Below are positions 1-51,764 of a DNA stretch of 64,000 nucleotides, piece by piece. Origin of the DNA: a virus. The DNA lies in IMG/VR virus record IMGVR_UViG_3300023184_000039, positions 64,001-128,000 of that record; one strand, given 5' to 3'. The position numbers and the translations under genes were made by a program. The notes below the pieces were generated by a model that worked only from the letters and a program-made list of their open reading frames with translations, did not search any database and had not been told where the DNA came from. Each line of letters starts with the position of its first letter. The first letter of the stretch is position 1.

Positions 1-3000
1 TCGTTGCCGGTATCGGGAACAAAGACAGCGTTGGCGACATTGTTATTAGTGGTGCTTTTGCAAAGAGTTTGACCCGAAGGAAGCCACGCGTTGTTTGGGG
101 ACACAGTTGGAACGACCCAATCGGCAAAGTTCTTGAGATGTACGAAGTTCCACCAAATGATTCTCGCCTACCAGCAAAAATGAAGGCGGCCGGAATTGGT
201 GGCTTGTATGCCCGTGTTCAATTTAACTTGCAGTCAGATAAGGGCAAAGAGGCATTTGCGAGCGTTGCCTTTTTCGGTACAGACCAAGAGTGGTCAATCG
301 GATACAAAACAATAGATGCAATTTTTGACCCTAATCTTCAGGCAAATGTTCTTAAAGAAGTTGAACTGTATGAAGTTTCTCCAGTCCTTCACGGTGCCAA
401 TCAATTAACTGGAACCATCTCGGTTAAGAACCACCCAGTCAGTTCGGCGATGCCAACGATGATGCCAATGACAATGGACCAAATGCCTCGGATAGTTATT
501 GTTAGTTCTGATTCGATTGGCGAACCACAAGAAGAGCGCGAAGAAGACGATGAGCAGGAGTTAAATCTTTTTGCCGAGGGATTAGCGCAACCATTGACCG
601 ATGAGCAAAAAGCAAAGATACAAAGCGAACTTTCGGAAAGAACTGGTTCAAAGGTAGAAATAACCCATGCAACCGAGGGTTCAATAGTATTCAAGAGGAC
701 GACAACAGACGGAAAAACTTCCATGTACCGAGTTGGGTATCACACCCCAGACGATTACAACACCTTCATGTTCGGTAAGCCAGAAATTTATGCTGATGGG
801 GAAAAGCCTCAAGCCGAAACAGAAATTCAGTCAAAGCCAAACCCAGACACACCAGTTGTACTTGCTGATGGCGGGGCTTCTTACCGTGACAACGAACAAC
901 AGATGTCATCATTCCTCGGTTCTGAAGAGAATGTAAACCCATGGGGCAAATCATTAGCAATGCATCTCATTCAATTGCCGGGATATTCAATGAAGGATGC
1001 ATCGCAAAAACTTTCTTCAATTTTTGAATACCACAAACTTGATGTTGTTGAAACAAATAACGGTCTACTTGTAACCAGTCAGTTGTCATCGGATGCAATG
1101 GATGCATTGCAAGTTGCCGTAAAGGGGATTGGTCAAGCACTTGGTCAATCTGCTGGAACATTGCGTTCAATGTCAGAGGGATTTAACCCACATGCAATTG
1201 ACGGTGACAATGATGGTTTTGCACAAGACAACACTGCATTCATGCGTCCCTATATTCCAATCGGAAGTCTTGATATAAACCTTCCAGACATTGGTGGAAA
1301 AAAACGTAACTCTTCTGATTTATTGGACATGCCATCGCTGGGGTCAAAGATTCCCGATGGTGACCCATCACTACTGTCTGGCACTGAGCGCGAAGCCGCA
1401 CTTGCTGCAGGAAAATTAACTCCTCGCACGCGCGAAGACATGATGTTCCTTGCTGACAGAAGACCAAATAATCCAGGTCTCGCCAAGTATTGGGACATGA
1501 ATGACAATGAACTCACACTTGCTGGACAGCGACTCAAGAGTCAGCGTGCTTCTGTTTCAAGTAACGAGCGCGGTCCAATTGATGCGGAACTATACAAAAT
1601 CTCACATGAGTTCACTCGTCGCCAATCGTACGAGCAACAGTTTGGCAAGAAATTCACTCCGTCAAAAGACGGTAAGAAGAAACCAGAAAAACTAAATGCC
1701 GCTGGTCGTACCGCCGAACAAGAAGCTCAACGGATGGAAAAATTTAGAGCCGATGCCGATACCGAGATTGTTGATGATGCAAGAGCACTCGGTTCGCGCT
1801 CTGGGGAGAAACCGAAGAAACCAAATACTGCTGGTCGTACTGCCGAACAAGAAGAATTGCGAACGGAAAAATTGCGCGACGGTGCAAACGACGACCTGAT
1901 TACAGATGCATATGACCGTGGCGAACTTGGTTCACGTTCAAATCCAGAACAGAGTGCGGCAGGACAGAAAATAATTGAAGACATGCTGGTTGCTCGTGGT
2001 TACGGCAGAGAAGAAGCCGGCAACATGCTTGACAACTGGAACGAAAACGACAACGGCACAGAAGAAATTCTTAAGTCAAATAAAAATGACCTTCTTGCTT
2101 CAATTGAAGAACATTGGTCAAATGCACTTGACAGAATGAATGACGATAAAGAGTCTCGCAGTCTTGGCTCACGCAGTGGCGAAAACCCAACACCAGACTA
2201 CCAAGACCAGTTTGATTCCGTTGTTGAAAAATGGTTTGACTCGCTACCAGACAGCAAGGAACGCGTTCAGGAATATCTTGACGAAGGTTTTGGTAAACAG
2301 AACGCTCGTGAAACAGCAATAGAAAAATGGATGGAATTAGAACAGAGTGAAAATCCAGAACTGTTCATGGACGAAATCCAGAACAGAATTGACGACTTAA
2401 ATGAAAACAGATGGGACGACTACCAGTCTCGTAATCTGGGTTCGCGTTCAAAGCCACTTGGTTCACGTGGTGACAAAGACGAATCAAACCGAGAAGAGAC
2501 ATTGGCTCAACGCCTAAAAGAAATTGATGGACTTTCTGCTGAGGAAGGATACATACCAAGACGCGGTCCACAACCTAGCGACCTTCAGCGTGACATGTAC
2601 GAGGAATTTGCAAGGTACGGTAACCAAAACGATGTTTGGGATTATCTGAACACTAGATACAGTGTTGAGAAATCTGATTACAGTGAGCCAGGATACTATA
2701 CAAATGAAAACAATTACAATCTCAGTGGCGCAATAAAAGACTCCATGTCCGAAGAGGACATGCGGAACTTTTTGAAAGCAGTAGCCGAATATGAGGCCAG
2801 CCCAGACTACGACGTATACAAAAAGGGAGGCCCCCTATACGACGAGTTGAACAAAAATCCGAAGCCACTCGGTTCACGTAGTTCTGACCCAATTGATGAG
2901 GCAATGAAGAAGCCTTCCAAGCCAGCAAAAATTCGTGAATACGGCGCCGAAGAGTATCAAGAATTTAATACCAGCAGGAACAACGACCCTCAGCAAGGTT

Positions 3001-6000
3001 TTGATGAACCAGTCTCTGATGATTTCAAATCTCACGAAGATGGCTCAAAATTTGTTGGACATACGGTTACCTTTTCCGATGGAAGAAGGGGCGTCATCGT
3101 CCAGGGTTATTGGCCAGAATATGAAATTATAGACAACGATGAATATCCCCCATCATTCATCTTTGACAGGGTTGGGAGTATTGATATTGCCGTCACACAC
3201 GACAAAGATGGCAATCGCCTAGATAAAATTCAATATGAAAAAGCAAAATTTGACCAAGAGTCAGACCTTGCGATTGCAAGCGAAGAATATCCATTTGAAT
3301 ATTACAATGACCCCGAACTCGCAGATGAGTTTAGTAGGTCATCCGTTCAGATTGACGACAACAAGGTAAGCCTTGAGGAGGTAGAAAAACTTAAACAACG
3401 CCCGAGCAAGCCACTCGGTTCACGTGGTGCACGCAAATCAACAGATGACTACAAAGATTTGGTTGATTGGTTGCCAGACCCAACCTCTGGCTCAACGAGG
3501 AAATACACAGATACCACCGATGGCGCCCTCAAGGTTGCCGAGGACAGGTATGCACTCATTCATGCTCGTCGTGAAATTGCCAAGGAAATGGCAGAAGCGA
3601 ACGGCGTAGAGTGGAAAAAGAACATCAGTATTTATGATGTATCAAAAGATGATGACGATATAGACATATTGGAAGACCTAACCAGCAGAATCAACAAACT
3701 CAATGATTATGTGACTGCACAAGACAAAGAATACAGACAAATTCGCAACCAAGAGAAAAAGGTCTACAAATCTGATTCGGAACTATCAGATATTAAGAAT
3801 TCAATAGACCTCGCTCTTGAAGGTTACGAAGGTACCGAGCGTGATATTGAGGAATATTCGGGCGACAATGCCGTGGACTGGTTCACTACAACACCAGAGG
3901 AAAATACAAAAGAACTAGCAGATAGTTTGAGGGATGACTTGGAAGAGTTGACCATTCACGAGGACGAGAATGGAAACGAGACACTCGCTAGAGAGTATTC
4001 CGAAGATATTGCCGAAGCAAAGACCCTGATAGATAAGGGCACACCAGAAGATTTGCAAAAAGCAATAGAGGTAATGCAAGGTGCTATTCGCAAGCAATCT
4101 GATGATTACGATACTGCTGCAAGAAATTACGAAGCTGAGGGTGACGAACTCCTTGGCCGTGGGTATAGACCAGTTGACTTGCTAGACGAAGATGTGGACT
4201 TTGCCGATGACACCTGGGAGTATGACGACGATTTAGACATAAAGGATGTTGGCGGCAAATACTCCATAATTCCCGACGAACTCTATGGCCCAGAACCAAC
4301 AGACAGTCCTTTCCATAGTGGCAAGGAGTCAGTTGACTATTACATGGGTCGGTCCAAGAATGCCCAGTACCTGAAACAGCAGGGCGTAGGACGATATGCT
4401 CTTGGCTCACGCTCGCAAGCGGATTCAGAGGGGCAAAAACCACCACGCAGAGCGGTTCTGATGTCGATGGACCCCAAGAATTCCAAACTTGCAAGACAGA
4501 TTGATTACGACCCACAAAATGGTGACCTCACTGTTTACCGCAAAGATGGCAAAAAAGAAACATTCAAAAATGTTTCTTATGACCGTGTTCGTGCGGCCGG
4601 AGTAAAAGACGACCCAGATACGCTCATTAATGCACTTCAGAAAGAGCAGAACAAGCCACGAAGTGGCTCGCTTGGTTCACGTCAAACATTGCAAAAGATT
4701 GATGTTGGCGACAGCCAGGCAATAGACGACATCCATTACGACGATATGCGCAAAGAACTGCATGTCGGTTTTACATCCCCAGATGGAGAGACTCGTCGGT
4801 ACACATATTTTGGTGTTTCGCAAGATGAGGCAGATGCCATTGATGCATCACCAAGCAAGGGTCGTGCAATCAACGACATCAAGAGAAACCACGATGTGGA
4901 GAAGATTGATTCGTCTGCCCTCAAGAGAGTGACTGGGACCAGCGACGAGCGCATGATTAGCCCCCTTACTGATTCTTCTGGAAAATATCCAGGTATCGGC
5001 GAACCAATTGATGTATCTGGAAGTTCTGCTTTAGAGGATGCTTTCTACGACCCTCGTAAGAGAGAGTTGGTTGTCAAATACAAAGATGGTGGCTCGTATG
5101 TCTACGAGCAAGTTCTTCCCGGAGAAGCAAGTACATTAAATTCTGCCCCAAGTAAAGGTCGTGCAATTAACGACATTAAAAAGAATCACTTTGTTCGCAA
5201 GTATGAAAAAGAAGCCGGCTCGTCAAAACTTGAATGGAGCGAGACAAGCGGAACCAGTTCGGAAACTTCTGGTCGCTCGGGTCTTGACTACACAATTGAA
5301 AAACAAGCAGATGGAACCTTTTCTGCTGAGGCTGGAAAATCCACATACTCCTACCAAGACGGTCCCGATTTTGAAACCGTTGACACAGCAGACGGATTTG
5401 AGACAGAAGATGCCGCAAAGACATGGGCAGCACAACACGATTTTGCTATTATTGAAAGAGAATCAGGATACGACAAAATTGACAGAGACAATGAGAGGGC
5501 TCGTAGGAACCAACCAGTAGATGTTGGTTACAGTTCAGCACTCGAATCTGCAAGTTGGGATGAAAGAAACAATGAATTAAGCATCACGTACAAGGGTGGA
5601 AAGAAATACATCTACTCAGACTTCACTCAAGACGACCTTGACAAATTTGAAGCCAACCCAAGTAAGGGCAGAGCAGCAAACGAAGTCAAAAAGAATCACC
5701 CAGTCCGCAAGGCAGACAGTGGCCCACTTGGTTCACGTTCCACCGGGAAGTCATCTCCATCAAGAGCGGTCATTCCAACAATGCCAGACATTGATGGAAT
5801 GGATGAACAAGATGCATCGGACGCATTAGAAAAATCCAATGAAGAGTTGCTTGATTTTATTGATGAAACAGAAAAACTGGCAAGAATGTCGCGTGGTGAC
5901 GATAACTACAACAAATATTTCGGTGGTGCAGTTCCATACATAGAAGAACTATCCAAGAACCATGACGGTTCAGTTGAAGAGCGTAGTATTGCTTTGGAAC

Positions 6001-9000
6001 AAGCAATTGACCAAGCAATGTTATATAGTCAGGATGTTGGTTCTTTGGGTGACGAGCGTGAGTCTCGCGAACTCGGTTCGCGTTCTGGTGCAGGTATCTA
6101 TCGCAGTCCTGGGCGCGGTGCTCCACGACCAATTCGCAGAGATGAAGGACTCCGTGAATTGACCCCATTTGACGAACTCCCGCCAAAGGTTCAAGAACGT
6201 GTCAACGAAAGTGTCATGGAATATCTCTATGACGAAAATCGCGGCATGTATTATGACGCCCAAGACGGCGGCGTTGACATGGATGAATTCCTTTCAGATA
6301 ATGCAGGATTCCATCCATATGGATATGTGGCTTTGACAGACAAGGAAAGAGCCCAAATTCGCGAACAAATGATGGATAGGTTTGCACCAAGAGAATACAT
6401 GGATGAGTATGGCGACGAAGTAGATGCAATGATTGCCAACTGGGACAAAGAAGTGGAAGTAAACCCAGACGAAATGGTTGATTTGCTGGACAAGAACAAG
6501 GATGACTATGTTGAGGCCATTCGCGATGCATGGGATATTGAGATGGATAGGCAACTCAATTCTCGTGAACTCGGTTCACGTAGTTCGGGCAACATTGACG
6601 ATGTTGATGTAAGTGGGTCAAGTGCTCTTGATTCTGCCTACTACCATGCGCCAACAGGTGAACTCGTAGTTGGTTATGCCAATGGAAGAAGTTATGTCTA
6701 CGAAGGAGTATCCAACGAAGAATTCCAAAACTTTAATGACAGCCCGAGCAAGGGCAGGGCTATCAACGAAATCAAGCGCACACATAGCTTCCGAGTTGCC
6801 AGTGATGAGGACAGAAATGACCGCATTGCAGGTGACAGAAGTGAAAGTGATGCAATGTCAAGAGGTGCTCTTGAGTCAAACTGGAAGAGAATCGGTTCAG
6901 CAGAACAACAACGATATCTTTCCCGTGAAACCAATAGTGCAATAAGTTCTGGTTCTGGTCAATCAACGGACGAACTTCTTAATGCAGCAAAAATGAGAGC
7001 CATGGATGACAGAAACATGGCCGACCTAGAAATGCAAGCAGAGTCGGTTGGTTCTGGTGGACGAAGCATTGATGTTTCTTCGAGTCAGGCACTCAACCGA
7101 GTGACATACGATAAAGAAAACGAATTACTCTCTGTTGAATATCGCGGCCGTGACGGTAAGGGTGCTGGAACGGTTTACGAATACCAAGGTGTCCCAGAAG
7201 ATGTTGTAGCAAGCCTAGAGTCGTCAGACAGCCGGGGTGCAGCACTTCGTCAAATCAGAGACGACTACGAATTCACTACTCGTGATGCACTGCCAGATTC
7301 TGCATATGACAAAACATCAAGCAAGCCACTCGGTTCAAGCAGCTCCAACAATACCCCTAATTTCAATCGTGAAGACATGGGTAAAATTCTTGACCGCGTT
7401 AGACAAACGCGAGAATTCCAAGACCTTGAAGAAGTCCAAAATACTCTTGACGGATACATGGAGCGTTCTCCAAGCAGAACCCGTGCAAGTTATCCAGAAC
7501 TTGATAAAGAAGAAGTAAGGGTAAGCAAACTGCTTGTTGAGAAGCGCAACGAGATAATTGCGGAGATGCTTGATGCTGGTGAAATAACAGACATTTCTGG
7601 TAAGCGTAAGCCACTCGGTTCGGGTGGGCGAATGGGGCCACGACCAGATGATTCTTCATATGCTCGTGACCTTGCAGACCAACGAAACAGAGATTATGCA
7701 GCAGGGGCCTACGCAACAAACCCAATAGGTAGATTTGCAGAAAACACAGATGGTGATAAGCCGTGGGTTTCGTATGAAGACCTAGACGCCGATGTTCGTG
7801 GCGAAATTGAGCAATCATATTATGAAAGCAATCCTGGGAGCCCACGTCCTGGAGCACGAGACTGGGACTCAGATTATGCACAAAACGACTTTGAAATGAA
7901 CCCAGGGAAGTATGGGTATGCGGACGAGGCAAGTTTTGAAGAAGATTTTTCTGCCGATATGGCAAGGTTTGAATCTAGGCGCAAGCGACTTGGTTCAAGT
8001 AGTGGCTCTTGGCCAACACCAAGTGGATATGAGCCAGACGAGTTCAACATGAACGAAGCAATGTCGCAGATTGGTCGTGGCAATATTGCTGCAATCTCTG
8101 GTGGCAGAGTTGTTAAGCGTGGCAATGAAATGGTTCTCCCAGTCAACAGGAATCAACAAGTAGTTGTTGGTTACAACGGCGGCTCGGATACCTATTACGT
8201 TCGAGCAGAACAAATAATCACAAGTGGCAAAGATAAAGGTAAACACAAAATCCTCGCACAATGGGGTGAGGTTTATGCAGAAAATGTTGGAGAAACGGCA
8301 TACAACGCATCTTTGAAACCATCAATGCACAGTGAAGAAAATGCAGATTTCTGGAAGACATCAGACCTTATTCCAAAGAACACGCTTGTTGACGGTGAAA
8401 CCGGAGAGAAGATATCAAACGCAGGACCACTCGGCTCACGTGGTTCACCCGGAAGCACTCGCCCAGGAATGGGTGTCTATACCGAAAACAGCGACGACAT
8501 GCTTTACGACGAAGCAAACGGACCAAGAAACTCAATTAGGCGTCGTGGCAACTATTCGCCACCAAACCAAAGACTGCTTGCAAGACAAGACAGAGCAGAA
8601 GCAATTGAAGAACTTGCTCAAAAAAATATTACACGGATGGATATTCTCAGAAAGACAAACCCTAAGAGATTTAGGGAAATGCTCAAGCGAGAAAATATAG
8701 ACCGTAGGGATTGGCGAGAACTTGCATACAGAGATGCAACAAATGCAATTGACCAACTTGCTAGGTATCAAGAACGCCGAGCCAGCGGTAACGGCATTAG
8801 AAGACCGCCTGGCGGCAACCTCCCAAAAGTTGACCCGTCACCACGGGGTGACGGACTCTCGCCGTTTGCAAACCTGAAAGACGGCGACATCGTCACTCTT
8901 GATAACGGAGCATTTAAGGTAAACGGAACTGAAGAATTGCGTGGAGCACTTGGTTCTCGCGCATTTAATTACGGACCAGAAACAGAAGTGAAGACAAAAG

Positions 9001-11879
9001 CAGAAGCAATGAAGATGCTTACCGACCAATTGATAAAATCAATTGAGTCAGCAGAAACTGGTGAATGGAAAATGCCATGGAGGGTTACAACCCTTCCGAC
9101 AAACCCAACAACTGGAAAAATGTATTCTGGTTCCAACTTTATGATGTTGTCCCTTATTGGTGAAGCGCGTGGATACACAAGTTCACAATGGGGTGGATAC
9201 GGACAATGGGCAGACAAGGGTGGACAGGTTCGCAAGGGAGCCAAAGGTGTTCCCGTATTTGTTCCGATGCCGTTCAAGGGGAAGTTGGACCCAATAACAA
9301 ATGAAGAAGACGGGGGCGGAATGTCATGGAAAGTCATTCGGGTATTTAACCGTGACGAAGTAGACGGACTGCCAGAAGATTTTGCAAACCCACCAGTTCT
9401 TCCAGAGGGAACAAGAATTGACAACCTGGAAAAAACAATTTTGGAAGTTGCGCCAAAAATAACCAATAGTGGAAGTAGGGCTTTCTACCGACCAAGCGAA
9501 GATTCAATTACCGTTCCAGAATTTAAAAATTTTAAAAGTGCACGCGATTACTACAGTACGGTTGCACACGAACTGATGCACTGGACTGGAAGTGAGTCGC
9601 GTCTCAACAGAAAAAAAATGAATGCTTTTGGTACACCAGAGTATGCATACGAAGAACTTGTCGCCGAAATTGCATCAGCAATGTTTATTGGGGCTCATGG
9701 ACTTGAGCCAAACATTCAAGAAAACCATGGACCATACCTGAAGAGTTGGCTCGCGGTGCTCAAAGATGACCCAACTGCATTACAACGAGCAATTAAGGAT
9801 GCCCAGGCCGCATTTGATTACGTCAATGGTGCTTCCCCAAACCTCAGGGGTTTGATGGGTTCCGAAGATAATGGCGGTCTAGAGGCTTCTGCAAAAACAG
9901 TTGAAAAATTGTCAACTCCATTGGGTTCCATGACATCGCGCCCCGGCATAGGGCTTACAGCCAATGATGTTAGGGATATGGATAGCGACCAACTTGATTC
10001 CATAATGAACCATTTCGGTCCACAAAATGTATACAACGCTCGTCCCGGTGAGATAACGCAGGAAGATTATGAAGATATTGCAAAATTCCTAAATAACCTT
10101 ACAGCCGAAGAGGTAATGGGATTCAGTAATCGTGATAGGGGCACATCTAGACCATTGGGTTCACGTTCCAGTTCTGGCGTGACAGACGGAAAACCCAAGA
10201 GTGCTAGAGCAAAACTTGAAGATGTCCCAGTACCCCCAATGCCACGCCAGTACGACGAAAACAGGACCAGTTCCGATGCATACGAAGATACTGAAATGGA
10301 AATTAGCAGTTACCTAGAGTCTCTTTCAAATGCCATGAAAGAGATTGTTGGCGATGATGAGTTTGAAAAGACATTCAAGCCAAGAGTGGACAGCATTATT
10401 GATGACATGCGAGACGAGCGTTCCCAATATGCAGAACCGCCAGACTGGGCTCTGAACAGGGCATGGAAACTTCACAAGGAAATGGTTTCTCGGTCACGCA
10501 TGCGTGAGCCGCTTGGTTCTAGTAGTGGCAATGGACCGCTTGGTTCTCGCATGAATCTTAGCCAAAGTGAGAAAAACGAAATAATCGCAATGGCACGACA
10601 AATGAGAAAGTCAAACTTTGCCAAAAGTGTTGTTGCACAATATGACACAAACGGCGGACAATTATCGGATGGTCAATGGGCGGCATTGAACCGAATGACC
10701 TTGCGAGGTGGTGGGAGAAATGCAATGGGTTCTCGTAGTGAACCAAAAAAGCCAAGAACACCCAAAGGTGGATGGTCGCCAGAAGATAGGCAGAGATTTG
10801 CCGACAGAGATATTCTCAAGTCACGAAAAGTTCCAGGTAAGCGTCTCCCGGGACCAAGTGCATCCGAGTATGGTGCACTGGGTTCAAGGTCGGCATTTGT
10901 TAATGGACGAACAGTTGACATGGAGCCCAGACAGGACACCAAACCACTACGAATTGGATTGAGCGACATTGTATTCGGAGATGACGGGAAGGGTAAATCC
11001 TGGGCTTTGGCCGACCTTGCTAGAAGTAGTTCTGAATTCAGAAATATAACCCCACAGGAATTAATGGGAAGATACGGAATTTCCGAACGTGCCGCTCTTG
11101 ACATGAAGAAACCAGGTGCAAAAATACGTGACCCATACCTAGCAGACGAACTGACTAATGCCTTTGGTTTTACCCCATCCGAAATTTGGGGACGAAACAA
11201 TCCAACTGCCTACCAAAATGCAGATGGAAGCCTAGTGGACCTATCGGACCTGTTTGAAAAGCCAGATAAAGACTTTGACCCAACACTTGATGGTTCGCTA
11301 CCCGTGGTGGAACTTCCAGATGCTGATGCAACATTGGAAGGAATTTCTTCTGCCGATGAAGCACGGAAGGTACGCAAGAGGGTGGGTGGTTCGCGCAGTG
11401 GAAAACTATCAACGGGTTATGATGCCCAGGTTCTTCTTGATGAGATTGGATACAACGGCTCCCGAAGTAGGCGCGCCCTTGAGCAGGCTTTCCCAGAAAT
11501 ATCAGAAAAGCGCTGGAGGTCAATTGCGGGCAAGGATTCAACGACTGGATTGACAGTAAACGAAGTCAATTCAATCCTAAAAAGATTAAAGTCAAACAAA
11601 AAGGGGACTGATATTTTTGGGGAATCATTTGAATCTGGAACCCAAACCCCCGTTGCCTCAATTTTCAGAAACCCACTCATTGTTGCAAACATTGAAAAAC
11701 GGGGTGGAATGAATGCAGTCGCCGAAGCCTACAAAAAGGCAACTGGTAGGAGTATCTCAAGAGCGCAGTCGTACAGATTGAGGGATAGCAAGGACTCCAT
11801 CACATCAACGGAACTACGAGTGATGCTGAATGAACTCGGTATTTCCGTGGAAGAGTTTGATGCACGAAATAAGGGGTAG
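1..11879 (+). CDS. Giant polyvalent protein (5'-truncated): N-terminal HK97-type prohead protease fused to ~24 LGS(R)-separated modules including 6 KTSC domains, ArdC-like ssDNA-binding + zincin, and C-terminal HTH-like units
   Basis: Frame is open from the window edge (VAGIGNKDSVGDIVISGAFAKSL-TRRKPRVVWGH...), so the true start is upstream of 69. Prohead protease motifs: D-x-V-x-x-GAF, WGH, GLYARVQF, EWSIGY, LKEVELYEVSPV. KTSC repeats S-x-A-[IL]...Y-D...L-x-V-x-[YF]...Y-x-Y-x-x-V...S-[KR]-G-R at ~4470-7280. ArdC-like block W-x-x-PW...Y-S-G-x-N...G-G-x-V-R-K-G...AHELMHWTG...YAYEELVAE at ~8990-9850. Confidence 0.9.
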   Translation, partial: VAGIGNKDSVGDIVISGAFAKSLTRRKPRVVWGHSWNDPIGKVLEMYEVPPNDSRLPAKMKAAGIGGLYARVQFNLQSDKGKEAFASVAFFGTDQEWSIGYKTIDAIFDPNLQANVLKEVELYEVSPVLHGANQLTGTISVKNHPVSSAMPTMMPMTMDQMPRIVIVSSDSIGEPQEEREEDDEQELNLFAEGLAQPLTDEQKAKIQSELSERTGSKVEITHATEGSIVFKRTTTDGKTSMYRVGYHTPDDYNTFMFGKPEIYADGEKPQAETEIQSKPNPDTPVVLADGGASYRDNEQQMSSFLGSEENVNPWGKSLAMHLIQLPGYSMKDASQKLSSIFEYHKLDVVETNNGLLVTSQLSSDAMDALQVAVKGIGQALGQSAGTLRSMSEGFNPHAIDGDNDGFAQDNTAFMRPYIPIGSLDINLPDIGGKKRNSSDLLDMPSLGSKIPDGDPSLLSGTEREAALAAGKLTPRTREDMMFLADRRPNNPGLAKYWDMNDNELTLAGQRLKSQRASVSSNERGPIDAELYKISHEFTRRQSYEQQFGKKFTPSKDGKKKPEKLNAAGRTAEQEAQRMEKFRADADTEIVDDARALGSRSGEKPKKPNTAGRTAEQEELRTEKLRDGANDDLITDAYDRGELGSRSNPEQSAAGQKIIEDMLVARGYGREEAGNMLDNWNENDNGTEEILKSNKNDLLASIEEHWSNALDRMNDDKESRSLGSRSGENPTPDYQDQFDSVVEKWFDSLPDSKERVQEYLDEGFGKQNARETAIEKWMELEQSENPELFMDEIQNRIDDLNENRWDDYQSRNLGSRSKPLGSRGDKDESNREETLAQRLKEIDGLSAEEGYIPRRGPQPSDLQRDMYEEFARYGNQNDVWDYLNTRYSVEKSDYSEPGYYTNENNYNLSGAIKDSMSEEDMRNFLKAVAEYEASPDYDVYKKGGPLYDELNKNPKPLGSRSSDPIDEAMKKPSKPAKIREYGAEEYQEFNTSRNNDPQQGFDEPVSDDFKSHEDGSKFVGHTVTFSDGRRGVIVQGYWPEYEIIDNDEYPPSFIFDRVGSIDIAVTHDKDGNRLDKIQYEKAKFDQESDLAIASEEYPFEYYNDPELADEFSRSSVQIDDNKVSLEEVEKLKQRPSKPLGSRGARKSTDDYKDLVDWLPDPTSGSTRKYTDTTDGALKVAEDRYALIHARREIAKEMAEANGVEWKKNISIYDVSKDDDDIDILEDLTSRINKLNDYVTAQDKEYRQIRNQEKKVYKSDSELSDIKNSIDLALEGYEGTERDIEEYSGDNAVDWFTTTPEENTKELADSLRDDLEELTIHEDENGNETLAREYSEDIAEAKTLIDKGTPEDLQKAIEVMQGAIRKQSDDYDTAARNYEAEGDELLGRGYRPVDLLDEDVDFADDTWEYDDDLDIKDVGGKYSIIPDELYGPEPTDSPFHSGKESVDYYMGRSKNAQYLKQQGVGRYALGSRSQADSEGQKPPRRAVLMSMDPKNSKLARQIDYDPQNGDLTVYRKDGKKETFKNVSYDRVRAAGVKDDPDTLINALQKEQNKPRSGSLGSRQTLQKIDVGDSQAIDDIHYDDMRKELHVGFTSPDGETRRYTYFGVSQDEADAIDASPSKGRAINDIKRNHDVEKIDSSALKRVTGTSDERMISPLTDSSGKYPGIGEPIDVSGSSALEDAFYDPRKRELVVKYKDGGSYVYEQVLPGEASTLNSAPSKGRAINDIKKNHFVRKYEKEAGSSKLEWSETSGTSSETSGRSGLDYTIEKQADGTFSAEAGKSTYSYQDGPDFETVDTADGFETEDAAKTWAAQHDFAIIERESGYDKIDRDNERARRNQPVDVGYSSALESASWDERNNELSITYKGGKKYIYSDFTQDDLDKFEANPSKGRAANEVKKNHPVRKADSGPLGSRSTGKSSPSRAVIPTMPDIDGMDEQDASDALEKSNEELLDFIDETEKLARMSRGDDNYNKYFGGAVPYIEELSKNHDGSVEERSIALEQAIDQAMLYSQDVGSLGDERESRELGSRSGAGIYRSPGRGAPRPIRRDEGLRELTPFDELPPKVQERVNESVMEYLYDENRGMYYDAQDGGVDMDEFLSDNAGFHPYGYVALTDKERAQIREQMMDRFAPREYMDEYGDEVDAMIANWDKEVEVNPDEMVDLLDKNKDDYVEAIRDAWDIEMDRQLNSRELGSRSSGNIDDVDVSGSSALDSAYYHAPTGELVVGYANGRSYVYEGVSNEEFQNFNDSPSKGRAINEIKRTHSFRVASDEDRNDRIAGDRSESDAMSRGALESNWKRIGSAEQQRYLSRETNSAISSGSGQSTDELLNAAKMRAMDDRNMADLEMQAESVGSGGRSIDVSSSQALNRVTYDKENELLSVEYRGRDGKGAGTVYEYQGVPEDVVASLESSDSRGAALRQIRDDYEFTTRDALPDSAYDKTSSKPLGSSSSNNTPNFNREDMGKILDRVRQTREFQDLEEVQNTLDGYMERSPSRTRASYPELDKEEVRVSKLLVEKRNEIIAEMLDAGEITDISGKRKPLGSGGRMGPRPDDSSYARDLADQRNRDYAAGAYATNPIGRFAENTDGDKPWVSYEDLDADVRGEIEQSYYESNPGSPRPGARDWDSDYAQNDFEMNPGKYGYADEASFEEDFSADMARFESRRKRLGSSSGSWPTPSGYEPDEFNMNEAMSQIGRGNIAAISGGRVVKRGNEMVLPVNRNQQVVVGYNGGSDTYYVRAEQIITSGKDKGKHKILAQWGEVYAENVGETAYNASLKPSMHSEENADFWKTSDLIPKNTLVDGETGEKISNAGPLGSRGSPGSTRPGMGVYTENSDDMLYDEANGPRNSIRRRGNYSPPNQRLLARQDRAEAIEELAQKNITRMDILRKTNPKRFREMLKRENIDRRDWRELAYRDATNAIDQLARYQERRASGNGIRRPPGGNLPKVDPSPRGDGLSPFANLKDGDIVTLDNGAFKVNGTEELRGALGSRAFNYGPETEVKTKAEAMKMLTDQLIKSIESAETGEWKMPWRVTTLPTNPTTGKMYSGSNFMMLSLIGEARGYTSSQWGGYGQWADKGGQVRKGAKGVPVFVPMPFKGKLDPITNEEDGGGMSWKVIRVFNRDEVDGLPEDFANPPVLPEGTRIDNLEKTILEVAPKITNSGSRAFYRPSEDSITVPEFKNFKSARDYYSTVAHELMHWTGSESRLNRKKMNAFGTPEYAYEELVAEIASAMFIGAHGLEPNIQENHGPYLKSWLAVLKDDPTALQRAIKDAQAAFDYVNGASPNLRGLMGSEDNGGLEASAKTVEKLSTPLGSMTSRPGIGLTANDVRDMDSDQLDSIMNHFGPQNVYNARPGEITQEDYEDIAKFLNNLTAEEVMGFSNRDRGTSRPLGSRSSSGVTDGKPKSARAKLEDVPVPPMPRQYDENRTSSDAYEDTEMEISSYLESLSNAMKEIVGDDEFEKTFKPRVDSIIDDMRDERSQYAEPPDWALNRAWKLHKEMVSRSRMREPLGSSSGNGPLGSRMNLSQSEKNEIIAMARQMRKSNFAKSVVAQYDTNGGQLSDGQWAALNRMTLRGGGRNAMGSRSEPKKPRTPKGGWSPEDRQRFADRDILKSRKVPGKRLPGPSASEYGALGSRSAFVNGRTVDMEPRQDTKPLRIGLSDIVFGDDGKGKSWALADLARSSSEFRNITPQELMGRYGISERAALDMKKPGAKIRDPYLADELTNAFGFTPSEIWGRNNPTAYQNADGSLVDLSDLFEKPDKDFDPTLDGSLPVVELPDADATLEGISSADEARKVRKRVGGSRSGKLSTGYDAQVLLDEIGYNGSRSRRALEQAFPEISEKRWRSIAGKDSTTGLTVNEVNSILKRLKSNKKGTDIFGESFESGTQTPVASIFRNPLIVANIEKRGGMNAVAEAYKKATGRSISRAQSYRLRDSKDSITSTELRVMLNELGISVEEFDARNKG

Positions 11880-38524: not shown

Positions 38525-41500
38525 ATGAATAACCTTGAGATACTGCTTGATGTCAAAGAACTAGGTCGTTACCAACGTAAGGTAATGACCCCATTAGATG
38601 AAGCATTTGACCCTGATGCTATTGATGGTGATGGTGATGGATTAGTTCAAGATAGAACTCCATTTGAGAGACCTGCCATTATCACTGCGATAACAGAGAC
38701 AGCACAAAGGATAAGTCAAGGTATCCGTGATGCTGGTCGTCTCAATCAGAAGCGCTCACACAATGTACATCGTGAGAGGCTAAGGGGTAAGAGCCATAGT
38801 GAGATAGCAGAGACACTAGTACCTAATGACTATGCCTCACTAGCATCATCCCTTACAGAGATGGCTATACAAGACCTAGGTGTTGATGCCTCACCTGCTG
38901 CCATACAAACTTGGATACAGGGGAAAGTATTTGACCTCACGGGTGATGCTACGGGTGATGTATTTGACTTCACACCTAAGCACATACGTAAGTTGCGTAA
39001 GACAGTAGAGAAGCACCTTGATGAACTACCTATGTTCAGACGACTAGTAGATGACTATGGTATGCCCCCCTTCTTCATACTAAAGAAAGGTGACTTCTCT
39101 GGTATCACATCACACGGCTTTGGTATAGGTGTGACTACTGGTGGTATGGGGTGGACAGATGGTAAGGGCAATCGCATACCCATACTTCGTTCCATATCAC
39201 TCAAACTTGGCTACTTTGATAAGTCTGGTGGTAGCAATAAGACAAAGAGATGGCTTACTGATACTGGTGTTAGGGGTACTGTGCTACACGAGTATGGTCA
39301 CTACCTAGCAGGTGTGCTGTATGACGACATTGTGAGTAACAAGTACGGTAAGTGGGAGGGTAGTCCTGATGTAGTGGACTTTGCTAGGTACATCAATATG
39401 GACTCCTTCAGTATCTCTACTCAGAACAGATTTCCCAATGTAGATGGCAAGGTAGGTAAGTCAATACCCGATGTGTTCTCTGCTATGTTCCATAAGCCTG
39501 AGTGGGATGAGGCTTGGAGTAAAGGCGACCTTCCTGATGAACTACCTCACGTACTTTCTTTCTATTCAGAAACAAACCCTTCAGAACAGTTTGCTGAAGG
39601 AATGGCGGCCCTTCTTTCTACCGACCCCAAACAACACAAACTTGTGTCACCCGGATTTGAGGATATGGTTAAACAACTTGTTGGATTAGAGACTGATGTA
39701 CCCTTTCAGTCTCAAGGTAGTAAATACAATGTAGACACCCTTGACTTACCACAAGTGACACAAGCACTTGGTTCTAGAGGTAGAGACTTCACAACACCTT
39801 CAGGAAACAAAGAGTTATGGCATCCAATCACCAAAGATATGGATGCTACAGAACTAGCAGAACGAATACATCCATCTAGTGCTGAAGAACTCATCTCAAT
39901 AATGGCTGAAGAAAACCACAGAATAACACCCACCTCATCCATCGAAGACCACAAGGCTTTGGTAGGACAAGTTCTTATGGAACTGTTTGAGGTCAAGTCA
40001 GTAAAAGAACTTGACTCAATGATGGATTTGTCAAAGAGGGGAGACAGGGTTGGGGCAATGGAACAACTCCTTCTAGACAACCCATCTTTGATGCTCCTAC
40101 ACAATCAGTATGGAGCGCCACCCCTCATACACCTCACACCAGAAGCATATGATGATGCTGCCAGAAGCCTAGAAGGAGAGTTTGCTGGAATACACGTCAT
40201 AGACCCACGACTCAATATTGGAACAATACTCCTATCACCCAACACCACCGACCTATTAGATAATTACAACACACCACTCCCACTAACTGGTGAAACTTTT
40301 CAGGAACTGCTTGACAACCGGCCATTGGGACAACGACTTGTTCTCTCTTATGCTAAGTGGAGAGGAAAGTATCCCAAGTCAGTGACATATATGTCTATTG
40401 GTAATAATGTTGAGCAACTCTACGCACACGAATATGCTCACTACCTACACGAACAAATGACGGCATCTCTCCCAATGGAGGGAAACCGTGAAAGACGAGC
40501 ATTACTCAGGGCATACTTGAGCGCAACTTGGGAGGAATTCTTTGCTGCTGTTGACAGACCAGATTGGGCTGAAGCATACACAAACAGAAGGAAAAAGGAT
40601 TTACCAGACGACTATCCGTTTGTTGACAGCGCATATGCCTTCTCAAACCCGTTAGAAATGTTCGCTGAGTCTTTCGCTGCTGCTACGGCTAGTGACCCAG
40701 CAATAAGGGGCGCAGTCAGTCCAGAAATGAACAGACAGATGGCGATGATGCTTGGACTTGACCCAGAACAAGCACTATATGAGCAATTAGTAGCCAATGA
40801 TGATGTAGTTAGCGCCTCACTTGACATATCAAGACCACTCGGCTCTAGGAGTAAGAAAAAGGACCGAGAGTTCTGGGAAAAAATGTATCCAGACAGAACC
40901 GCAGCAGAGTGGAAAGCGATTGAGGAAAAAATACAGCAAGAAAGAGATAATACCTATCTAGGTAGACCACTCGGGTCTGCCCCAAGTTTGACTGCTTCAG
41001 AGGCTATTCGTTCGCTTGATGAGGTAGCAAAGATAGAAGAACGTGACCTCATCACTACTGATGACCCAACACTACGACCCGGAGTACGAAAACTTGACAC
41101 AAAGGCTTGGGATGGCAAGGACATCTATCAAACAGCAGATGCTGGTGATGCGCTTGCCCTCATAGCAAACGGTCATTACGTTGAGATGACACACGAAGAA
41201 GGATTGTGGCTCGCCCTCGCAGACATAGGCAAGAGATGGAAAGAAATACAGAAGAGCAGCGGCAAGGAAATAAAAACACTCAATGCTTGTTTGTTTATGA
41301 CCGTTGATGCCAATGGTAAGTCAAACAACCTGTTCTGTCGAGGACACCACGATATTGCTCGATTGTCAATGCCACAAGTTGGTGGATATATGACAAAAGA
41401 AAATCAGGTCTTGCTACAAGCCTGGAGGTCAGGACTTACCGAGAACAGAGGTGGTGCTCACGATGCCTTCATTGGCGGCAATAAAGCCGTAGAAGCAATG

Positions 41501-44500
41501 AAGGAACTTGGAAAAGGAATTGTTGAGGCAACCATCACCGAAGATGAGTGGAAGGTACTTGATAAAAAGTGGAGAAAGAAAATAGAAACACCAGAAGAAC
41601 GAGCATTGTACTTTGCTAATACATATATGCCATTGGTGGAGGCTGACTCAACACCAGAATTCATACGCTTTCTAAAACAAAAAGGAATAGGCACGGGTGA
41701 TGTAGAGCTTGTAGATGTATTTGATGATGTCAACTCCACACAAAACGAATTAGTTCTTGACAAGATTTCTGGTATTGGTGGGGCAATGTTGTCCAAGTAT
41801 AGGGAGTTTCAAACCAGACGCGAACAGATACTTAGTGATATATCCCTATCTCAAACAGAAAAAGATACTGCTATTGCTGCGGCTCTCAAAGATTTCCAGA
41901 CCATCCCGCAGATGTTGCCAATTATCATATCCAAAGACGGATACATATTTGACGGTCACCACAGAGCATTTGGTAGACGTATATTTGAGTCTCAACTAAA
42001 CGAAGAGGAACTCAAAGAAGTAAAAGCAATGGGGTTCCAGGTCAGAAGAAGCGAAGCAAACATCTCCGAACTGTTGGGTATTGGAAAAGCATATCAAGAC
42101 CATATGGGTGTCGCAGCGGCACCGGGTGGCCCAAAGAAGGTTGACCTATATGTTGACCACACAGAAGACATTGGTGACATATCAAACGAAGAGTGGGTAC
42201 AACATCAGAAAGAAATCTTTGATGGTCTTGATGACATCGTTGCTGGTTACCATCCAGCAGACTATTGGAAACCAGCAGGTGTTGAGGAACTTGATGTCGA
42301 AGGAAATGTAATAAAAAGAACTGCTGACTCGCCAGCAATTCAAACTGGAACTCAATCAAACGAACCAATAAGAAAAATGTATAGAGGAGAAGCAAGAAAT
42401 ATATTTGAGGAAGGCGATAGACAAGGGGCAATGGCACTTGGCTCTCAATCAGAGCAACCAAGTGAACCATCATCGTGGATGATGTCAATTATGGGTTCTG
42501 GACCCAACGGCCCATTGGTTGATGTAAAACCACCAAAGCCAGATACGAGAACAAGTGGGTTCAATAAGAAATTACCAAGATGGGTAAGTACATTACTTTC
42601 CCTACATCCGTTTATTGACCCAGAGGTGCTTCAGTCGGTTCGTGACCGCACACCAAAACCAGTCATACCTTCGTCATATCCACAGGTAATGAAGATGACA
42701 GGCAAAGAAAGACGACTACATAACACCAATCTCAAAAAGATACTTGACACAATAGAACTATCGGATGATGTAGTGAAGAACTTGTCTTTAATGGGCAGGA
42801 ACAACACAAATGCACGTGACAATGCTGCCAATGTTTATCTACACTCACTTGGTGTTGACCTCAATGACTCAAAAGCAGTTGAGAAAGCCCTCAATGGTGG
42901 TTTTGCTGATTGGATGTCCACTAAACCCTATAGCGAAATAGAAACATTGAGTGAAATAACCCCGAGAGAGTGGAATAAGTATATAGATGGAACGCCAAGT
43001 CGTGGTGGCGAATCAGATATGAAAGAATTGGTTGCCACATTGTCTCCAATGGAAGCCAGAGAGATAGCCACATCACTCCGTGACTACACAAGGGGCTTGG
43101 AACGACCACTTACTGATGATGAATCAAAGAAACTCAATCAAATAATTGAGACACCTGTATTTAGAGCGGCACTCGGTGTCAATGATGGTGAAGATTCAGC
43201 ATCTGTTGTTAGAAGTTTCCTCTGGGATGATGCCGACAAAGCAGAACGAGGGCCGCTTGGTTCTATGTCTGAAGCCAAGCCCGTTGTTGATTACAATGAA
43301 GCACGCAAGGCCGGTAGAAGCAAGATATTCAGAAAGAAGTACAAGTCCCGTGCCGAGATGTATGACGGCGCATCAACCGAACAACAAGTACGACTGTCTG
43401 TTCCAAGAACGGCTGAAGAACATCACACAATGATGATGGATGCCACAGTTGACCGGCTCAACTTGCAACTCAAACTCAAAAATGCTGGAATAAGTGAAGA
43501 ACCAGTTGATGTACGACGGTTCATAGATATGTCCGACCCACTCAATCCACGGGCAAAGATTGCCGCAGTGCAGCCGCTTGTTGACCACGTCATCAAGACA
43601 GCAAAAGAGTATGAACCAGACTTCTCCCCAGAAGCAATCAAGCAAGCAGAAGCAATGGTCACCCAGACACTCAACTCATCTCCCGCCTTGCGCCACTTCG
43701 CTAGTGAGTACGGGTTACCCCCAGTGGTTATTGGCTCACAAAATGCCCTTGACAGACAGATGGTTGTGTATGCATTAAAGATATCCAAGCCAAATCAAGA
43801 AATGAACACCATCTTAGATAAATATCAAGGCATCAGGCAGATGATGGATGAAACACGTATTCAGGAAATACTTGATGACCCAGTCGCAATGGAGAAGATA
43901 CGCAAAGCATATGACAACGGGACTAACCCAATCGCAGGCGCATACATCAACGCCGCAAATATGTTGGTTATCTATCCCGGCTCAAGCAGCCATAAGGCGT
44001 TCCTTGACGGCAAGCCAATTGACCCGGCTTACGTCCCAAAACCAGGCGACCACACCGTACTTGACAACAGTATTGAGGCTACATTGTTACACGAATACGG
44101 GCATTACTTTGACCAACGTGTAGGTATGTTGTTGAGTGAGGGCGGCCTTGACCCAGAGAGTGATATGGCAAAAGCATATACTCGACTTCATCACAGCAAC
44201 ACTCTTGATGCGCTGACATCCAAGCGCGGCAACCCATTGTTCACATCAAAGGACAATCCAGTTATTGAAACAACGTACGGGCAAACAAATACGCAAGAAA
44301 TGGCCGCAGAAGCAATGAGCGCCGTCTTCTCAAACAACCCGCACGCTATGGAAATGCTCAACAAGCCGCTACTTGACGATGTATATACGCTACTTGGTAT
44401 CAAGTCAAGCGAACGTAATGGCATTACCGAACGGGACTTGCCGTGGCTCAAGGATGCAAAAGATAAGCGCAGCGAACTTGTTGGGGATGGCGCGCCATCA

Positions 44501-51429: not shown

Positions 51430-51764
51430 CGGGACTCTGGCTTTCCACTCATATCACGACGATAACTCGTACGCACACCAGGAAGCAAATCACGCTCAAA
51501 TGTTTGTATTTTGATGCCGCGTTCTCTCCGGGTATAAAAACGCTCACGTTCATCTTGCCCGCCCCAAACTCCAAGCGGCTCGTGTACGAGTGAATATTCT
51601 AAACAATTACTTACAACAGAACATCCAGAACAAATCAATTTAGCGGCAGTAACTTTTTGTCGGTCTTCTCGTATTTTCACATTTTGTGGAAAGAACAACG
51701 TTGTGTCTTGTCCTTTACAGGCCGCCTGGTTCATAAACGAAACATTAACTTCAGTAATAATCAT
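51426..51764 (-). CDS. whiB: WhiB-family transcription factor
   Basis: AAC...FFP...AK-x-IC-x-x-C-x-V-x-x-x-CL...GVWGG...ER. Confidence 0.9.
   Translation of the reverse strand: MIITEVNVSFMNQAACKGQDTTLFFPQNVKIREDRQKVTAAKLICSGCSVVSNCLEYSLVHEPLGVWGGQDERERFYTRRERGIKIQTFERDLLPGVRTSYRRDMSGKPESR

What the first reader, a model, noticed from the sequence alone, without database searches (positions are those of the whole stretch)
1182..1250. Shared N-proximal tag F-[ND]-P-x-AIDGD-x-DG-x-x-QD-x-T-x-F-x-RP in both polyproteins
Seen: FNPHAIDGDNDGFAQDNTAFMRP (1182-1250) and FDPDAIDGDGDGLVQDRTPFERP (38606-38674) match closely. Each lies just before its LGS-module array and occurs in no other ORF of the window. 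Established: DxDxDG is a Ca2+-binding loop, and T4 internal proteins use a short N-terminal capsid-targeting sequence. Inference: a capsid-targeting or docking signal that, with the LGS sites, forms an address-plus-cut code for cargo loading.
Basis: partly seen in the sequence, partly recalled or inferred. Interest (0 to 1): 0.78.

Follow-up and report, generated by a model that had tools for sequence, protein, structure and literature searches.

The report
Conserved calcium-loop tag on phage cargo
Two giant multi-enzyme proteins of an uncultured lake phage share one short, highly conserved calcium-loop motif. Hundreds of related phage proteins carry it too, so it is probably a handle linking this cargo to head assembly, though no experiment shows that yet.

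Summary
The two 23-residue stretches lie at the stated coordinates and share 15 of 23 residues, against 9-11 in shuffles. They are the only significant similarity between the two giant ORFs and the only copies in the 140.6-kb genome. LGS[RSGMQ] punctuation is confined to the same two ORFs.

The motif is a real, autonomous module of about 30 residues: a DxDxDG loop followed by G-T-x-F-E-R-P. A profile of it finds 702 cluster representatives among 1.84 billion proteins. Most listed hits exceed 1,000 residues; they include S78 prohead-protease fusions and chains with Zeta-toxin, ART, NUDIX, topoisomerase IB and GNAT domains. Cellular genomes almost lack it. No Pfam family, solved structure or paper describing it was found.

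In ORF2 orthologues the tag is 76-88% identical while the enzyme after it is 30-41% identical. AlphaFold places it in a disordered linker. Most internal copies lie about 15-35 residues after a K-x-L-G element resembling the HK97 capsid cut site.

The "address" reading is partly supported. Each chain carries its own tag when cargo is split or fused. However, a portal-MuF fusion carries five tags, and a frameshift-terminated protease product carries none. It is therefore not a T4-type targeting sequence.

The scan noted this tag before on other phage genomes.

The parts
1..11879 (+). ORF1, the giant protease-led cargo polyprotein. It starts at an ATG 75 nt upstream of the window and is 3,984 aa long.
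   Evidence: ORF list and upstream reading. Pfam finds Peptidase_S78, five KTSC, ArdcN and MPTase-PolyVal. It has 24 LGS against 1.9 expected.
27..419 (+). HK97-type (S78) prohead protease domain of ORF1.
   Evidence: Pfam PF04586, E 3.4e-7. tblastn matches capsid maturation proteases of Gordonia and Brevibacterium phages at E down to 1e-25.
960..1163 (+). Small alpha/beta middle domain that precedes the tag. Its last helix runs into the K-G-I-G element.
   Evidence: AlphaFold2 on alignment A4 gives pLDDT about 76-85 for model residues 17-84. It is conserved only in protease fusions.
1122..1133 (+). K-G-I-G, the window's version of the conserved K-[AG]-[LI]-G element. It is a predicted HK97-type cut site 26 residues before the first Asp of the loop.
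   Evidence: K71 and G74 are invariant in A4. K[AG][LIA]G is present upstream of 50% of the 234 tags with enough upstream sequence, against 2% background. HK97 gp5 is cut K103|S-L-G-S. Coordinates checked.
1182..1259 (+). Tag copy 1: F-N-P-x-A-I-D-G-D-N-D-G-F-A-Q-D-N-T-A-F-M-R-P-Y-I-P.
   Evidence: It is conserved in more than 50 IMG/VR relatives. AlphaFold gives pLDDT 40-50 and no secondary structure.
1788..1799 (+). First consensus L-G-S-R punctuation site of ORF1. It is the first of the 22 LGS[RSGMQ] sites.
38525..46606 (+). ORF2, the second, unlinked cargo polyprotein of 2,693 aa.
   Evidence: Pfam finds RNase_T and GNAT over threshold, and WYL just below it (20.4 against 21.8 bits); its translation holds HExxH zincin-type motifs. 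It has 7 LGS against 1.1 expected.
38555..38566 (+). K-E-L-G, the leader element of ORF2. It lies 23 residues before the first Asp of the loop and 10 residues after the start Met.
   Evidence: Orthologues have ...K-x-(x)-L-G or L-N at the same place.
38606..38680 (+). Tag copy 2: F-D-P-D-A-I-D-G-D-G-D-G-L-V-Q-D-R-T-P-F-E-R-P-A-I.
   Evidence: It is 76-88% identical in nine orthologous loci whose following module is only 30-41% identical.
39767..39778 (+). First L-G-S-R punctuation site of ORF2. It marks the end of the tag-bearing first module.

Best explanation
The motif is a portable short linear module of about 30 residues. With its K-x-L-G leader and Gly/Arg-rich spacer the unit is about 60 residues. 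It marks polypeptides destined for the inside of the phage head.

Its first half is a DxDxDG loop, which probably binds Ca2+. Its second half, G-T-x-[FW]-E-R-P-x-[IP], is the family-specific part. It sits in a disordered linker. In internal copies it usually lies about 15-35 residues downstream of a predicted HK97-type protease cut site ([K]|x-L-G).

The most likely mechanism is as follows. The tag docks the cargo chain onto a conserved component of the assembling procapsid interior: the capsid-protein scaffolding (delta) domain, the portal, or the protease-linked middle domain. This loads or retains the chain. The prohead protease then cuts the chain at the lineage-specific punctuation sites (LGSR in this phage), and the enzymes are ejected with the DNA.

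Shown here: the existence, conservation, distribution and context of the motif. Inferred: Ca2+ binding, docking, cleavage and ejection.
For: 1. It is the only segment shared by the two polyproteins and the only two copies in the genome. The LGS punctuation is confined to the same two ORFs.

2. One tag per chain persists across fusion and fission. G000 and G001 have two giant tagged ORFs. G005 has five separate tagged ORFs. A more distant 130-kb contig has five tagged ORFs between portal-MuF and the capsid gene, including the protease protein itself.

3. It is the most conserved part: 76-88% identity against 30-41% for the adjacent enzyme. It persists while the punctuation changes from LGSR to GFAS, GMRS or GRKP.

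4. There are 702 profile hits. Of the 234 listed or retrieved hits that carry the tag, 153 exceed 1,000 aa, and the first tag lies in the first quarter of the chain in 170. Partner domains are polyvalent or effector types and S78 proteases.

5. It is virus-restricted. Only 4 hits were found in 185,579 species genomes, all on MAG contigs.

6. AlphaFold places it in a low-confidence, structure-free linker between folded parts, as expected of a docking peptide or metal-dependent loop.

7. Precedents for short packaging signals exist: P1 DarB residues 1-30 and the T4 IPIII capsid targeting sequence (PMC9024508).
Against: A portal-MuF fusion (P0021, 3,015 aa), already anchored in the head, carries five tags.

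In 15 related loci a conserved -1 slippery site ends a protease-only product before the tag. The protease therefore presumably enters the head without it.

ORF1 is covalently fused to the protease and would not need its own address.

Some small proteins carry the tag at the C-terminus or in tandem.

None of these proteins has been shown to be in a virion.
Confidence: 0.45

Rival explanations
1. Processing element rather than address. The leader plus tag acts as an exosite that recruits or positions the S78 prohead protease on its substrates. It may start processing at the adjacent K|x-L-G site, or keep the released fragment near the protease.
For: 79% of 234 tags have K[AGS][ALIVM] within the 40 residues upstream, against 18% background. 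HK97 gp5 is cut at K|S-L-G-S. The tag co-occurs with protease-type punctuation in the same ORFs only. Multiple tags between modules of a portal-anchored polyprotein fit a processing role better than an address. S78 protease is the commonest partner domain.
Against: This phage has 24 + 7 punctuation sites but only one tag per chain. The tag stays nearly constant while the punctuation, and presumably the protease specificity, changes between lineages. In contig L097 the small tandem-tag protein is the only tagged ORF and no polyprotein is evident next to it.
Confidence: 0.2
2. A calcium-dependent switch that acts at or after ejection. The loop is empty or differently ligated in one compartment and binds Ca2+ in another. 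This would drive refolding, release, or anchoring of the leading cargo fragment in the cell envelope.
For: The Ca-ligand positions are the most invariant. They survive (D-x-N-x-N-G...E) even where the second half has decayed, as in G002. Small tandem-tag proteins carry a C-terminal domain whose best, though weak, structural matches are peptidoglycan-binding domains. One family member has a precomputed PG_binding_1 hit.
Against: This does not explain one tag per chain regardless of cargo. The peptidoglycan-binding similarity is weak (Foldseek E about 1). Most partner domains are cytoplasmic-target enzymes. Ca2+ binding is untested.
Confidence: 0.15
3. Tag-to-tag pairing, or piggy-back loading. 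Single EF-hand-like loops pair, so unlinked cargo such as ORF2 rides into the head by pairing its tag with the tag on the protease-fused polyprotein ORF1.
For: The protease-linked chain always carries a tag. Tags within one genome resemble each other beyond the core: in G005, I-P-G-[IV]-N-T-N-L-P-G recurs in three paralogues.
Against: AlphaFold does not pair the two tags of natural tandem-tag proteins; pLDDT is 43-53 with no structure. No helices flank the loop. In contig L097 only one small protein is tagged and the protease is not.
Confidence: 0.1
4. Conserved linker with no specific function, or a chance resemblance.
For: It lies in a predicted disordered region. No function has been demonstrated.
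Against: The pairwise match has E 1e-5. There are 702 profile hits with E down to 7e-24. Six columns are invariant, and conservation far exceeds that of the adjacent enzymes.
Confidence: 0.03

Closest known systems
Capsid targeting sequences of packaged phage proteins (T4 IPIII/Alt CTS; P1 DarB N-terminal 30 residues; PMC9024508)
   Same: A short peptide shared by otherwise unrelated proteins that are, or are predicted to be, carried in the head. It is associated with prohead-protease processing and with anti-restriction or host-modifying cargo.
   Different: There is no sequence similarity. The tag here is often internal. The predicted cut lies before it, so it would stay on the mature fragment rather than be removed. 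It contains a Ca-loop. The protease is HK97-type S78, not T4 gp21. Sufficiency for targeting is untested.
Polyvalent proteins of phages and conjugative elements (Iyer, Burroughs, Anand, de Souza, Aravind 2017; PMC5512222)
   Same: The carriers are giant chains of shuffled effector domains (MPTase-PolyVal, ArdC-N, ART, GNAT, Zeta toxin, NUDIX) in phage late regions and are predicted to be injected.
   Different: Term searches of that paper found no 'calcium', 'EF-hand' or 'DxDxDG', and 'prohead protease' only in a reference title; it credits embedded MPTase domains with processing. So it does not appear to describe this motif, a prohead-protease-headed polyprotein or lineage-specific punctuation. 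Most carriers here lack a MuF domain.
DxDxDG calcium-binding loops (EF-hand, Excalibur PF05901, dockerin)
   Same: D-x-[DN]-x-[DN]-G, hydrophobic residues at positions 7-8, and an acidic residue at position 10, as in the Excalibur DxDxDGxxCE. The first half aligns with the EF-hand loop of Rab11-FIP3.
   Different: Scores are below the Excalibur gathering threshold (15.1 and 18.5 against 22 bits). The Excalibur cysteine is absent. No flanking helices are predicted. The second half, G-T-x-F-E-R-P, has no counterpart in those families.
HK97 gp4 protease encapsidation signal and gp5 delta-domain cleavage (Duda, Oh, Hendrix 2013, as listed in PMC9024508; content from my own knowledge)
   Same: The same protease family (S78). 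In the fusions the tag lies directly behind the protease module, where HK97 carries its capsid-targeting tail. The K|x-L-G leader resembles the HK97 gp5 cut K103|S-L-G-S.
   Different: The HK97 signal is the protease's own C-terminal tail and is not known to have a Ca-loop. Here the frameshift-terminated protease product lacks the tag.
Encapsulin cargo-loading peptides
   Same: Short disordered peptides that load enzymes into an HK97-fold shell by binding its inner surface (own knowledge).
   Different: The sequence class differs. Those peptides are usually C-terminal. There is no protease processing and no DNA-filled capsid. Not tested here.

Membership tests
DxDxDG / EF-hand-like Ca2+-binding loop | Asp/Asn ligands at loop positions 1, 3 and 5, and Gly at position 6 | tested here: met
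   D11, D13, D15 and G16 are invariant in 23 diverse copies. The degenerate G002 copy keeps D-x-N-x-N-G.
DxDxDG / EF-hand-like Ca2+-binding loop | Hydrophobic residue after the Gly and a downstream acidic ligand | tested here: met
   Positions 7-8 are F/L/I/V plus A/V, and position 10 is D or E in every row of A1.
DxDxDG / EF-hand-like Ca2+-binding loop | Helix-loop-helix context and pairing of two loops (true EF-hand or dockerin) | tested here: not met
   AlphaFold2 predicts no helices around the loop and does not pair tandem tags. pLDDT is 40-53.
DxDxDG / EF-hand-like Ca2+-binding loop | Measured Ca2+ binding | not testable with these tools
   Needs ITC, 45Ca overlay or a structure with ion.
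Excalibur domain (PF05901) | Score at or above the Pfam gathering threshold of 22 bits | tested here: not met
   15.1 bits (E 0.031) for the ORF1 segment, none for ORF2, and 18.5 bits for a tandem-tag protein.
Excalibur domain (PF05901) | Conserved Cys in DxDxDGxxCE | tested here: not met
   Position 9 is Q or F in all copies. The true Excalibur-like hits (..DGVVCE..) match only profile positions 5-22 or 5-23.
T4-type capsid targeting sequence | Located at the extreme N-terminus of the precursor | tested here: not met
   The ORF1 tag is at residues 420-442. Among 234 carriers the first tag is within 60 residues of the start in only 70.
T4-type capsid targeting sequence | Ends in a prohead-protease site and is removed on maturation | tested here: not met
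   The conserved cut-like element K-x-L-G lies 23-26 residues upstream in the two window copies. The LGS 30 residues downstream in ORF1 is not conserved in relatives. Actual cleavage is untested.
T4-type capsid targeting sequence | Sufficient to direct a foreign protein into the capsid | not testable with these tools
   Needs a tag-reporter encapsidation assay.
Polyvalent proteins (Iyer et al. 2017), for the carrier proteins | Several effector-type domains in one chain, including hallmark domains | tested here: met
   ORF1 has ArdcN, MPTase-PolyVal and five KTSC. ORF2 has RNase_T and GNAT over threshold and WYL just below it. Other carriers have ART-PolyVal, Zeta_toxin, NUDIX and topoisomerase IB.
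Polyvalent proteins (Iyer et al. 2017), for the carrier proteins | Encoded among late or virion genes and packaged in the head | tested here: inconclusive
   ORF1 lies between the portal and the major head protein. ORF2 follows a DNA methyltransferase about 15 kb after the capsid gene. Packaging is untested.
HK97-type prohead-protease cleavage site | Basic P1 followed by x-L-G(-S), as in HK97 gp5 K103|S104-L-G-S | tested here: inconclusive
   The HK97 mature N-terminus S-L-G-S is confirmed. By my reading of the listed contexts, about half of the 31 LGS sites have K or R two residues before the Leu. K-G-I-G and K-E-L-G precede the two tags. There are no proteomic data.
phrog_7924 (unknown function) | Match to the whole 112-position profile | tested here: not met
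   Only profile positions 81-108 match, that is the motif itself, at E 2.9e-5 and 2.5e-3.

The most novel reading that the evidence does not exclude
The leader plus tag would be a general, portable, Ca2+-dependent loading signal for HK97-fold phage capsids. In this reading it is used by a large uncultured clade of actinobacterial phages together with a lineage-specific cut-here code. In some lineages a gag-pol-like -1 frameshift would set the ratio of protease to protease-cargo fusion. That would amount to a programmable system for packaging and injecting arbitrary enzymes.
Probability: 0.3. Interest if true: 0.8.

Novelty: new variant of a known kind. Interest (0 to 1): 0.6.

Why it matters
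How phages choose which proteins to load into the head is understood for only a few model systems: T4, P1, and HK97's own protease. This is a sequence-defined candidate signal shared by hundreds of uncultured phage proteins that carry anti-restriction, toxin-like and nucleotide-modifying enzymes.

If it is a loading handle, three things follow:
- It would allow virion cargo to be predicted from sequence alone in metagenomes.
- It would explain how giant polyproteins are organised.
- It could provide a short tag for packaging foreign proteins into HK97-type capsids.

The counter-examples found here, the portal fusion and the untagged protease product, sharpen which experiment is needed.

Tried and rejected
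- tblastn against cultured phages. The ORF2 N-terminus gave one chance hit, RcKemmy gp53, which lacks the motif. A tandem-tag protein gave no match. Cargo-domain homologues in Rhodococcus phage E3 gp205 and Mycobacterium phage Rizal gp102 carry no tag.
- The PDB sequence profile search found nothing significant. Foldseek searches of both models found nothing with E <= 0.001.
- The idea that two tags form an EF-hand or dockerin-like pair is not supported by AlphaFold on natural tandem-tag proteins.
- I first read some relatives as having a polyprotein that begins with the tag. I revised this. The frame is open upstream, encodes the conserved leader, and is joined to the protease frame at a conserved slippery site.
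- The 250-residue stretch between protease and tag is not a general partner of the tag. It is conserved only in protease fusions.
- The first locus search with ORF2 alone failed. It succeeded with a two-sequence alignment.
- A 36-residue profile was too short for one tool.
- Literature searches for DxDxDG or calcium with phage cargo targeting found no description. Duda et al. 2013 is not held.
Full report
**The observation**

The two peptides translate exactly as quoted. A six-frame scan of the window and then of the whole genome finds the full motif only at these two places. The genome is a 140,645-bp IMG/VR virus record with direct terminal repeats.

BLASTP of the two giant ORFs against each other gives this segment as the only significant similarity: 17/29 identical, E 1e-5. 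The best 23-residue window has 15 identities, against 9-11 in twenty shuffles.

ORF1 begins at an ATG 75 nt before the window. Its tag is therefore at residues 420-442 of 3,984. The ORF2 tag is at residues 28-50 of 2,693.

LGS is strongly over-represented in both ORFs: 24 against 1.9 expected, and 7 against 1.1 expected. LGS[RSGMQ] occurs 22 and 6 times there and at most once in any other ORF of 150 aa or more.

**Setting**

- ORF1 opens with an HK97-type S78 prohead protease. It lies between the portal gene and the major head protein gene.
- Further along, ORF1 carries five KTSC domains and an ArdC-N plus MPTase-PolyVal pair.
- ORF2 lies about 15 kb beyond the capsid gene, after a DNA methyltransferase. 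Pfam finds an RNase_T exonuclease and a GNAT over threshold and WYL just below it. Its translation also holds HExxH zincin-type motifs.
- Both ORFs have the architecture of the polyvalent proteins of Iyer et al. 2017 (PMC5512222).
- Three WhiB genes in the genome point to an actinobacterial host.

**The motif is a real, conserved, autonomous module**

More than 50 IMG/VR relatives found with the ORF1 N-terminus carry it at the same position. In an alignment of 23 diverse copies, D-x-D-x-D-G and the later R-P are invariant and I-P nearly so. The consensus is F-[DN]-P-x-A-x-D-[GA]-D-x-D-G-phi-[VA]-Q-[DE]-G-[TS]-x-[FW]-x-R-P-x-I-P.

A 36-position profile searched against 1.84 billion cluster representatives finds 702 proteins at E <= 1e-3 and 115 at E <= 1e-10. 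Among the 234 listed or retrieved carriers:

| Property | Count |
|---|---|
| Longer than 1,000 aa | 153 |
| Longer than 2,000 aa | 42 |
| One tag per chain | 168 |
| Two tags per chain | 59 |
| Three to five tags per chain | 7 |
| First tag in the first quarter of the chain | 170 |

S78 protease is the commonest partner domain in the second search. Zeta toxin with DUF3721 and KTSC comes next, then HTH and NUDIX. In a sample of 39 more distant carriers, Pfam also finds ADP-ribosyltransferases, topoisomerase IB, kinases, GNAT, one portal and one MuF.

A scan of one genome for each of 185,579 prokaryotic species returns only four relatives, all on short or MAG contigs. No Pfam family covers the motif. 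Excalibur scores stay below threshold. phrog_7924 (unknown function) matches only through the motif. No solved structure contains it. I found no paper describing it.

**Evidence that bears on function**

1. **One tag per independently translated chain.**
   - G001 (151 kb, complete) has two tagged giants of 4,905 and 3,154 aa.
   - G005 has five separate tagged ORFs of 1,771, 1,577, 1,139, 916 and 135 aa.
   - A more distant 130-kb contig has five tagged ORFs between portal-MuF and the capsid gene, one of them the protease protein itself.

2. **The tag is the most conserved part.** In nine loci orthologous to ORF2 it is 76-88% identical to the window copy. The zincin module behind it is 30-41% identical.

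3. **The tag outlives the punctuation.** The window uses LGSR, G001 uses GFAS(R), G005 uses GMRS, and G002 uses L-[AS]-[RQ]-G-R-K-P. G000, G001 and G005 keep the canonical tag; G002 has only a degenerate copy, whose loop ligands are retained as D-x-N-x-N-G.

4. **AlphaFold2 places the tag in a linker with no predicted structure.** With family alignments, pLDDT is 40-50 there. The linker lies between a confident small alpha/beta domain and a helical region in ORF1. The picture is the same in natural small proteins that start with two tandem tags.

5. **The tag belongs to a larger unit.**
   - Of the 234 tags with enough upstream sequence, 79% have K[AGS][ALIVM] within the 40 residues upstream, against 18% background.
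   - 50% have K[AG][LIA]G, against 2% background. The nearest K-type element starts 15-34 residues before the first Asp in 167 of the 186 tags that have one, with a Gly/Arg-rich spacer.
   - The window has K-G-I-G before tag 1 and K-E-L-G before tag 2.
   - HK97 gp5 is cut at K103|S104-L-G-S: mature chains in the PDB start S-L-G-S-D. Both the leader element and the LGS punctuation therefore look like sites for an HK97-type protease. That would leave the tag near the N-terminus of the first mature cargo fragment. This step is inferred. There are no proteomic data.

**Evidence against a simple address**

- P0021, from a 70% G+C phage contig, is a portal-MuF fusion of 3,015 aa. It has five tags of the short form (R-D-G-D-G-D-G-F-I-Y-D-G-T-P-x-x-R-P) between its modules. 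A chain already built into the portal needs no address.
- Fifteen relatives have protease and polyprotein in different frames. There the protease frame stops 1-3 codons after an exactly conserved GGTTCAAAAAAAT. The -1 frame is open from there and encodes the K-x-L-G leader before the apparent start Met. One relative has the same junction fused in frame.
- This looks like a programmed -1 frameshift of the gag-pol or G/GT type. The protease-only product would then lack the tag and must enter the head by other means.
- ORF1 in the window is fused to the protease in frame and would ride in with it.
- Some small proteins carry the tag at their C-terminus (135 aa in G005) or in tandem at the N-terminus, directly downstream of a capsid gene.

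**Reading**

The best-supported explanation, at about 45%, is a portable docking handle. It would be probably calcium-dependent. It would tie cargo chains to a conserved component of the procapsid interior for loading or retention. The lineage-specific punctuation would supply the cutting.

Rivals:
- A protease-recruiting or processing-initiation element (about 20%).
- A calcium switch acting at or after ejection (about 15%).
- Tag-to-tag piggy-backing on the protease fusion (about 10%).

The likeness to the T4 capsid targeting sequence is functional at most. The tag is not N-terminal in general, it is not predicted to be removed, and it works with a different protease family.

**Relation to earlier notes of this scan**

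The same tag, with other punctuation motifs, was noted on other phage genomes. The two polyproteins of this genome were followed up separately. I used those notes as leads. Here I tested the changing punctuation, the Lys-x-Leu-Gly leader and the multi-tag genomes.

**Limits**

No multimer modelling, no expression data and no virion proteomics were available. The carriers analysed are related to one another, so enrichment figures are not independent counts. The absence from cultured phages rests on tblastn, which is weak for a 30-residue, partly low-complexity motif.

Noticed in passing
L033 4345-4357 (also L040, L042-L051, L054, L056, L057): An exactly conserved GGTTCAAAAAAAT (slippery A AAA AAA) lies 1-3 codons before the stop of the prohead-protease frame. 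The -1 frame is open from there and encodes the K-x-L-G leader and the tag. This is probably a programmed -1 frameshift joining protease to cargo polyprotein. L035 has the same junction fused in frame.
   Followed up: partly
L092, L093 (G001); L090, L091 (G005); L073 (G002): Relatives keep the tag but use other punctuation in their polyproteins. GFAS(R) occurs 13 and 6 times in the two G001 giants. GMRS occurs 7 times in each of two G005 proteins. G002 uses L-[AS]-[RQ]-G-R-K-P.
   Followed up: partly
L094 9388-18435 and 18745-28435: In a 70% G+C phage contig, a portal-MuF fusion of 3,015 aa carries five short-form tags. The next giant ORF (over 3,200 aa, with Zeta toxin and helicase) has no tag. 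It opens with an H-P-R-D-x-x-G-R-F motif that may be a different shared element.
   Followed up: no
L097 8001-8507: A family of 165-190-aa proteins starts with two tandem tags. One is encoded immediately after the major capsid gene. Some members end in a confident small domain whose best, though weak, structural matches are peptidoglycan-binding domains.
   Followed up: partly
window 20703-21551 and 21559-22197: Two ORFs just upstream of the major head protein carry DUF6321 (E 7e-30) and DUF3721 (E 1e-9). DUF6321 is fused to the S78 protease in another tagged phage (L095). DUF3721 accompanies Zeta toxin in many tagged proteins.
   Followed up: no
window 22314-22620: The major head protein has a helical-looking, charged N-terminal stretch of about 100 residues. 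It is reminiscent of an HK97 delta (scaffolding) domain and is a candidate receptor for the tag.
   Followed up: no
window 51540-51731 (-) and 57767-57952 (-); also genome 2501-2692 (-): Three WhiB-family genes in one phage genome point to an actinobacterial host.
   Followed up: no
window 11957-13525: The 522-aa ORF directly after ORF1 has a PepSY (peptidase propeptide/inhibitor) domain, E 1.5e-6. This is an odd neighbour for a protease-led polyprotein.
   Followed up: no
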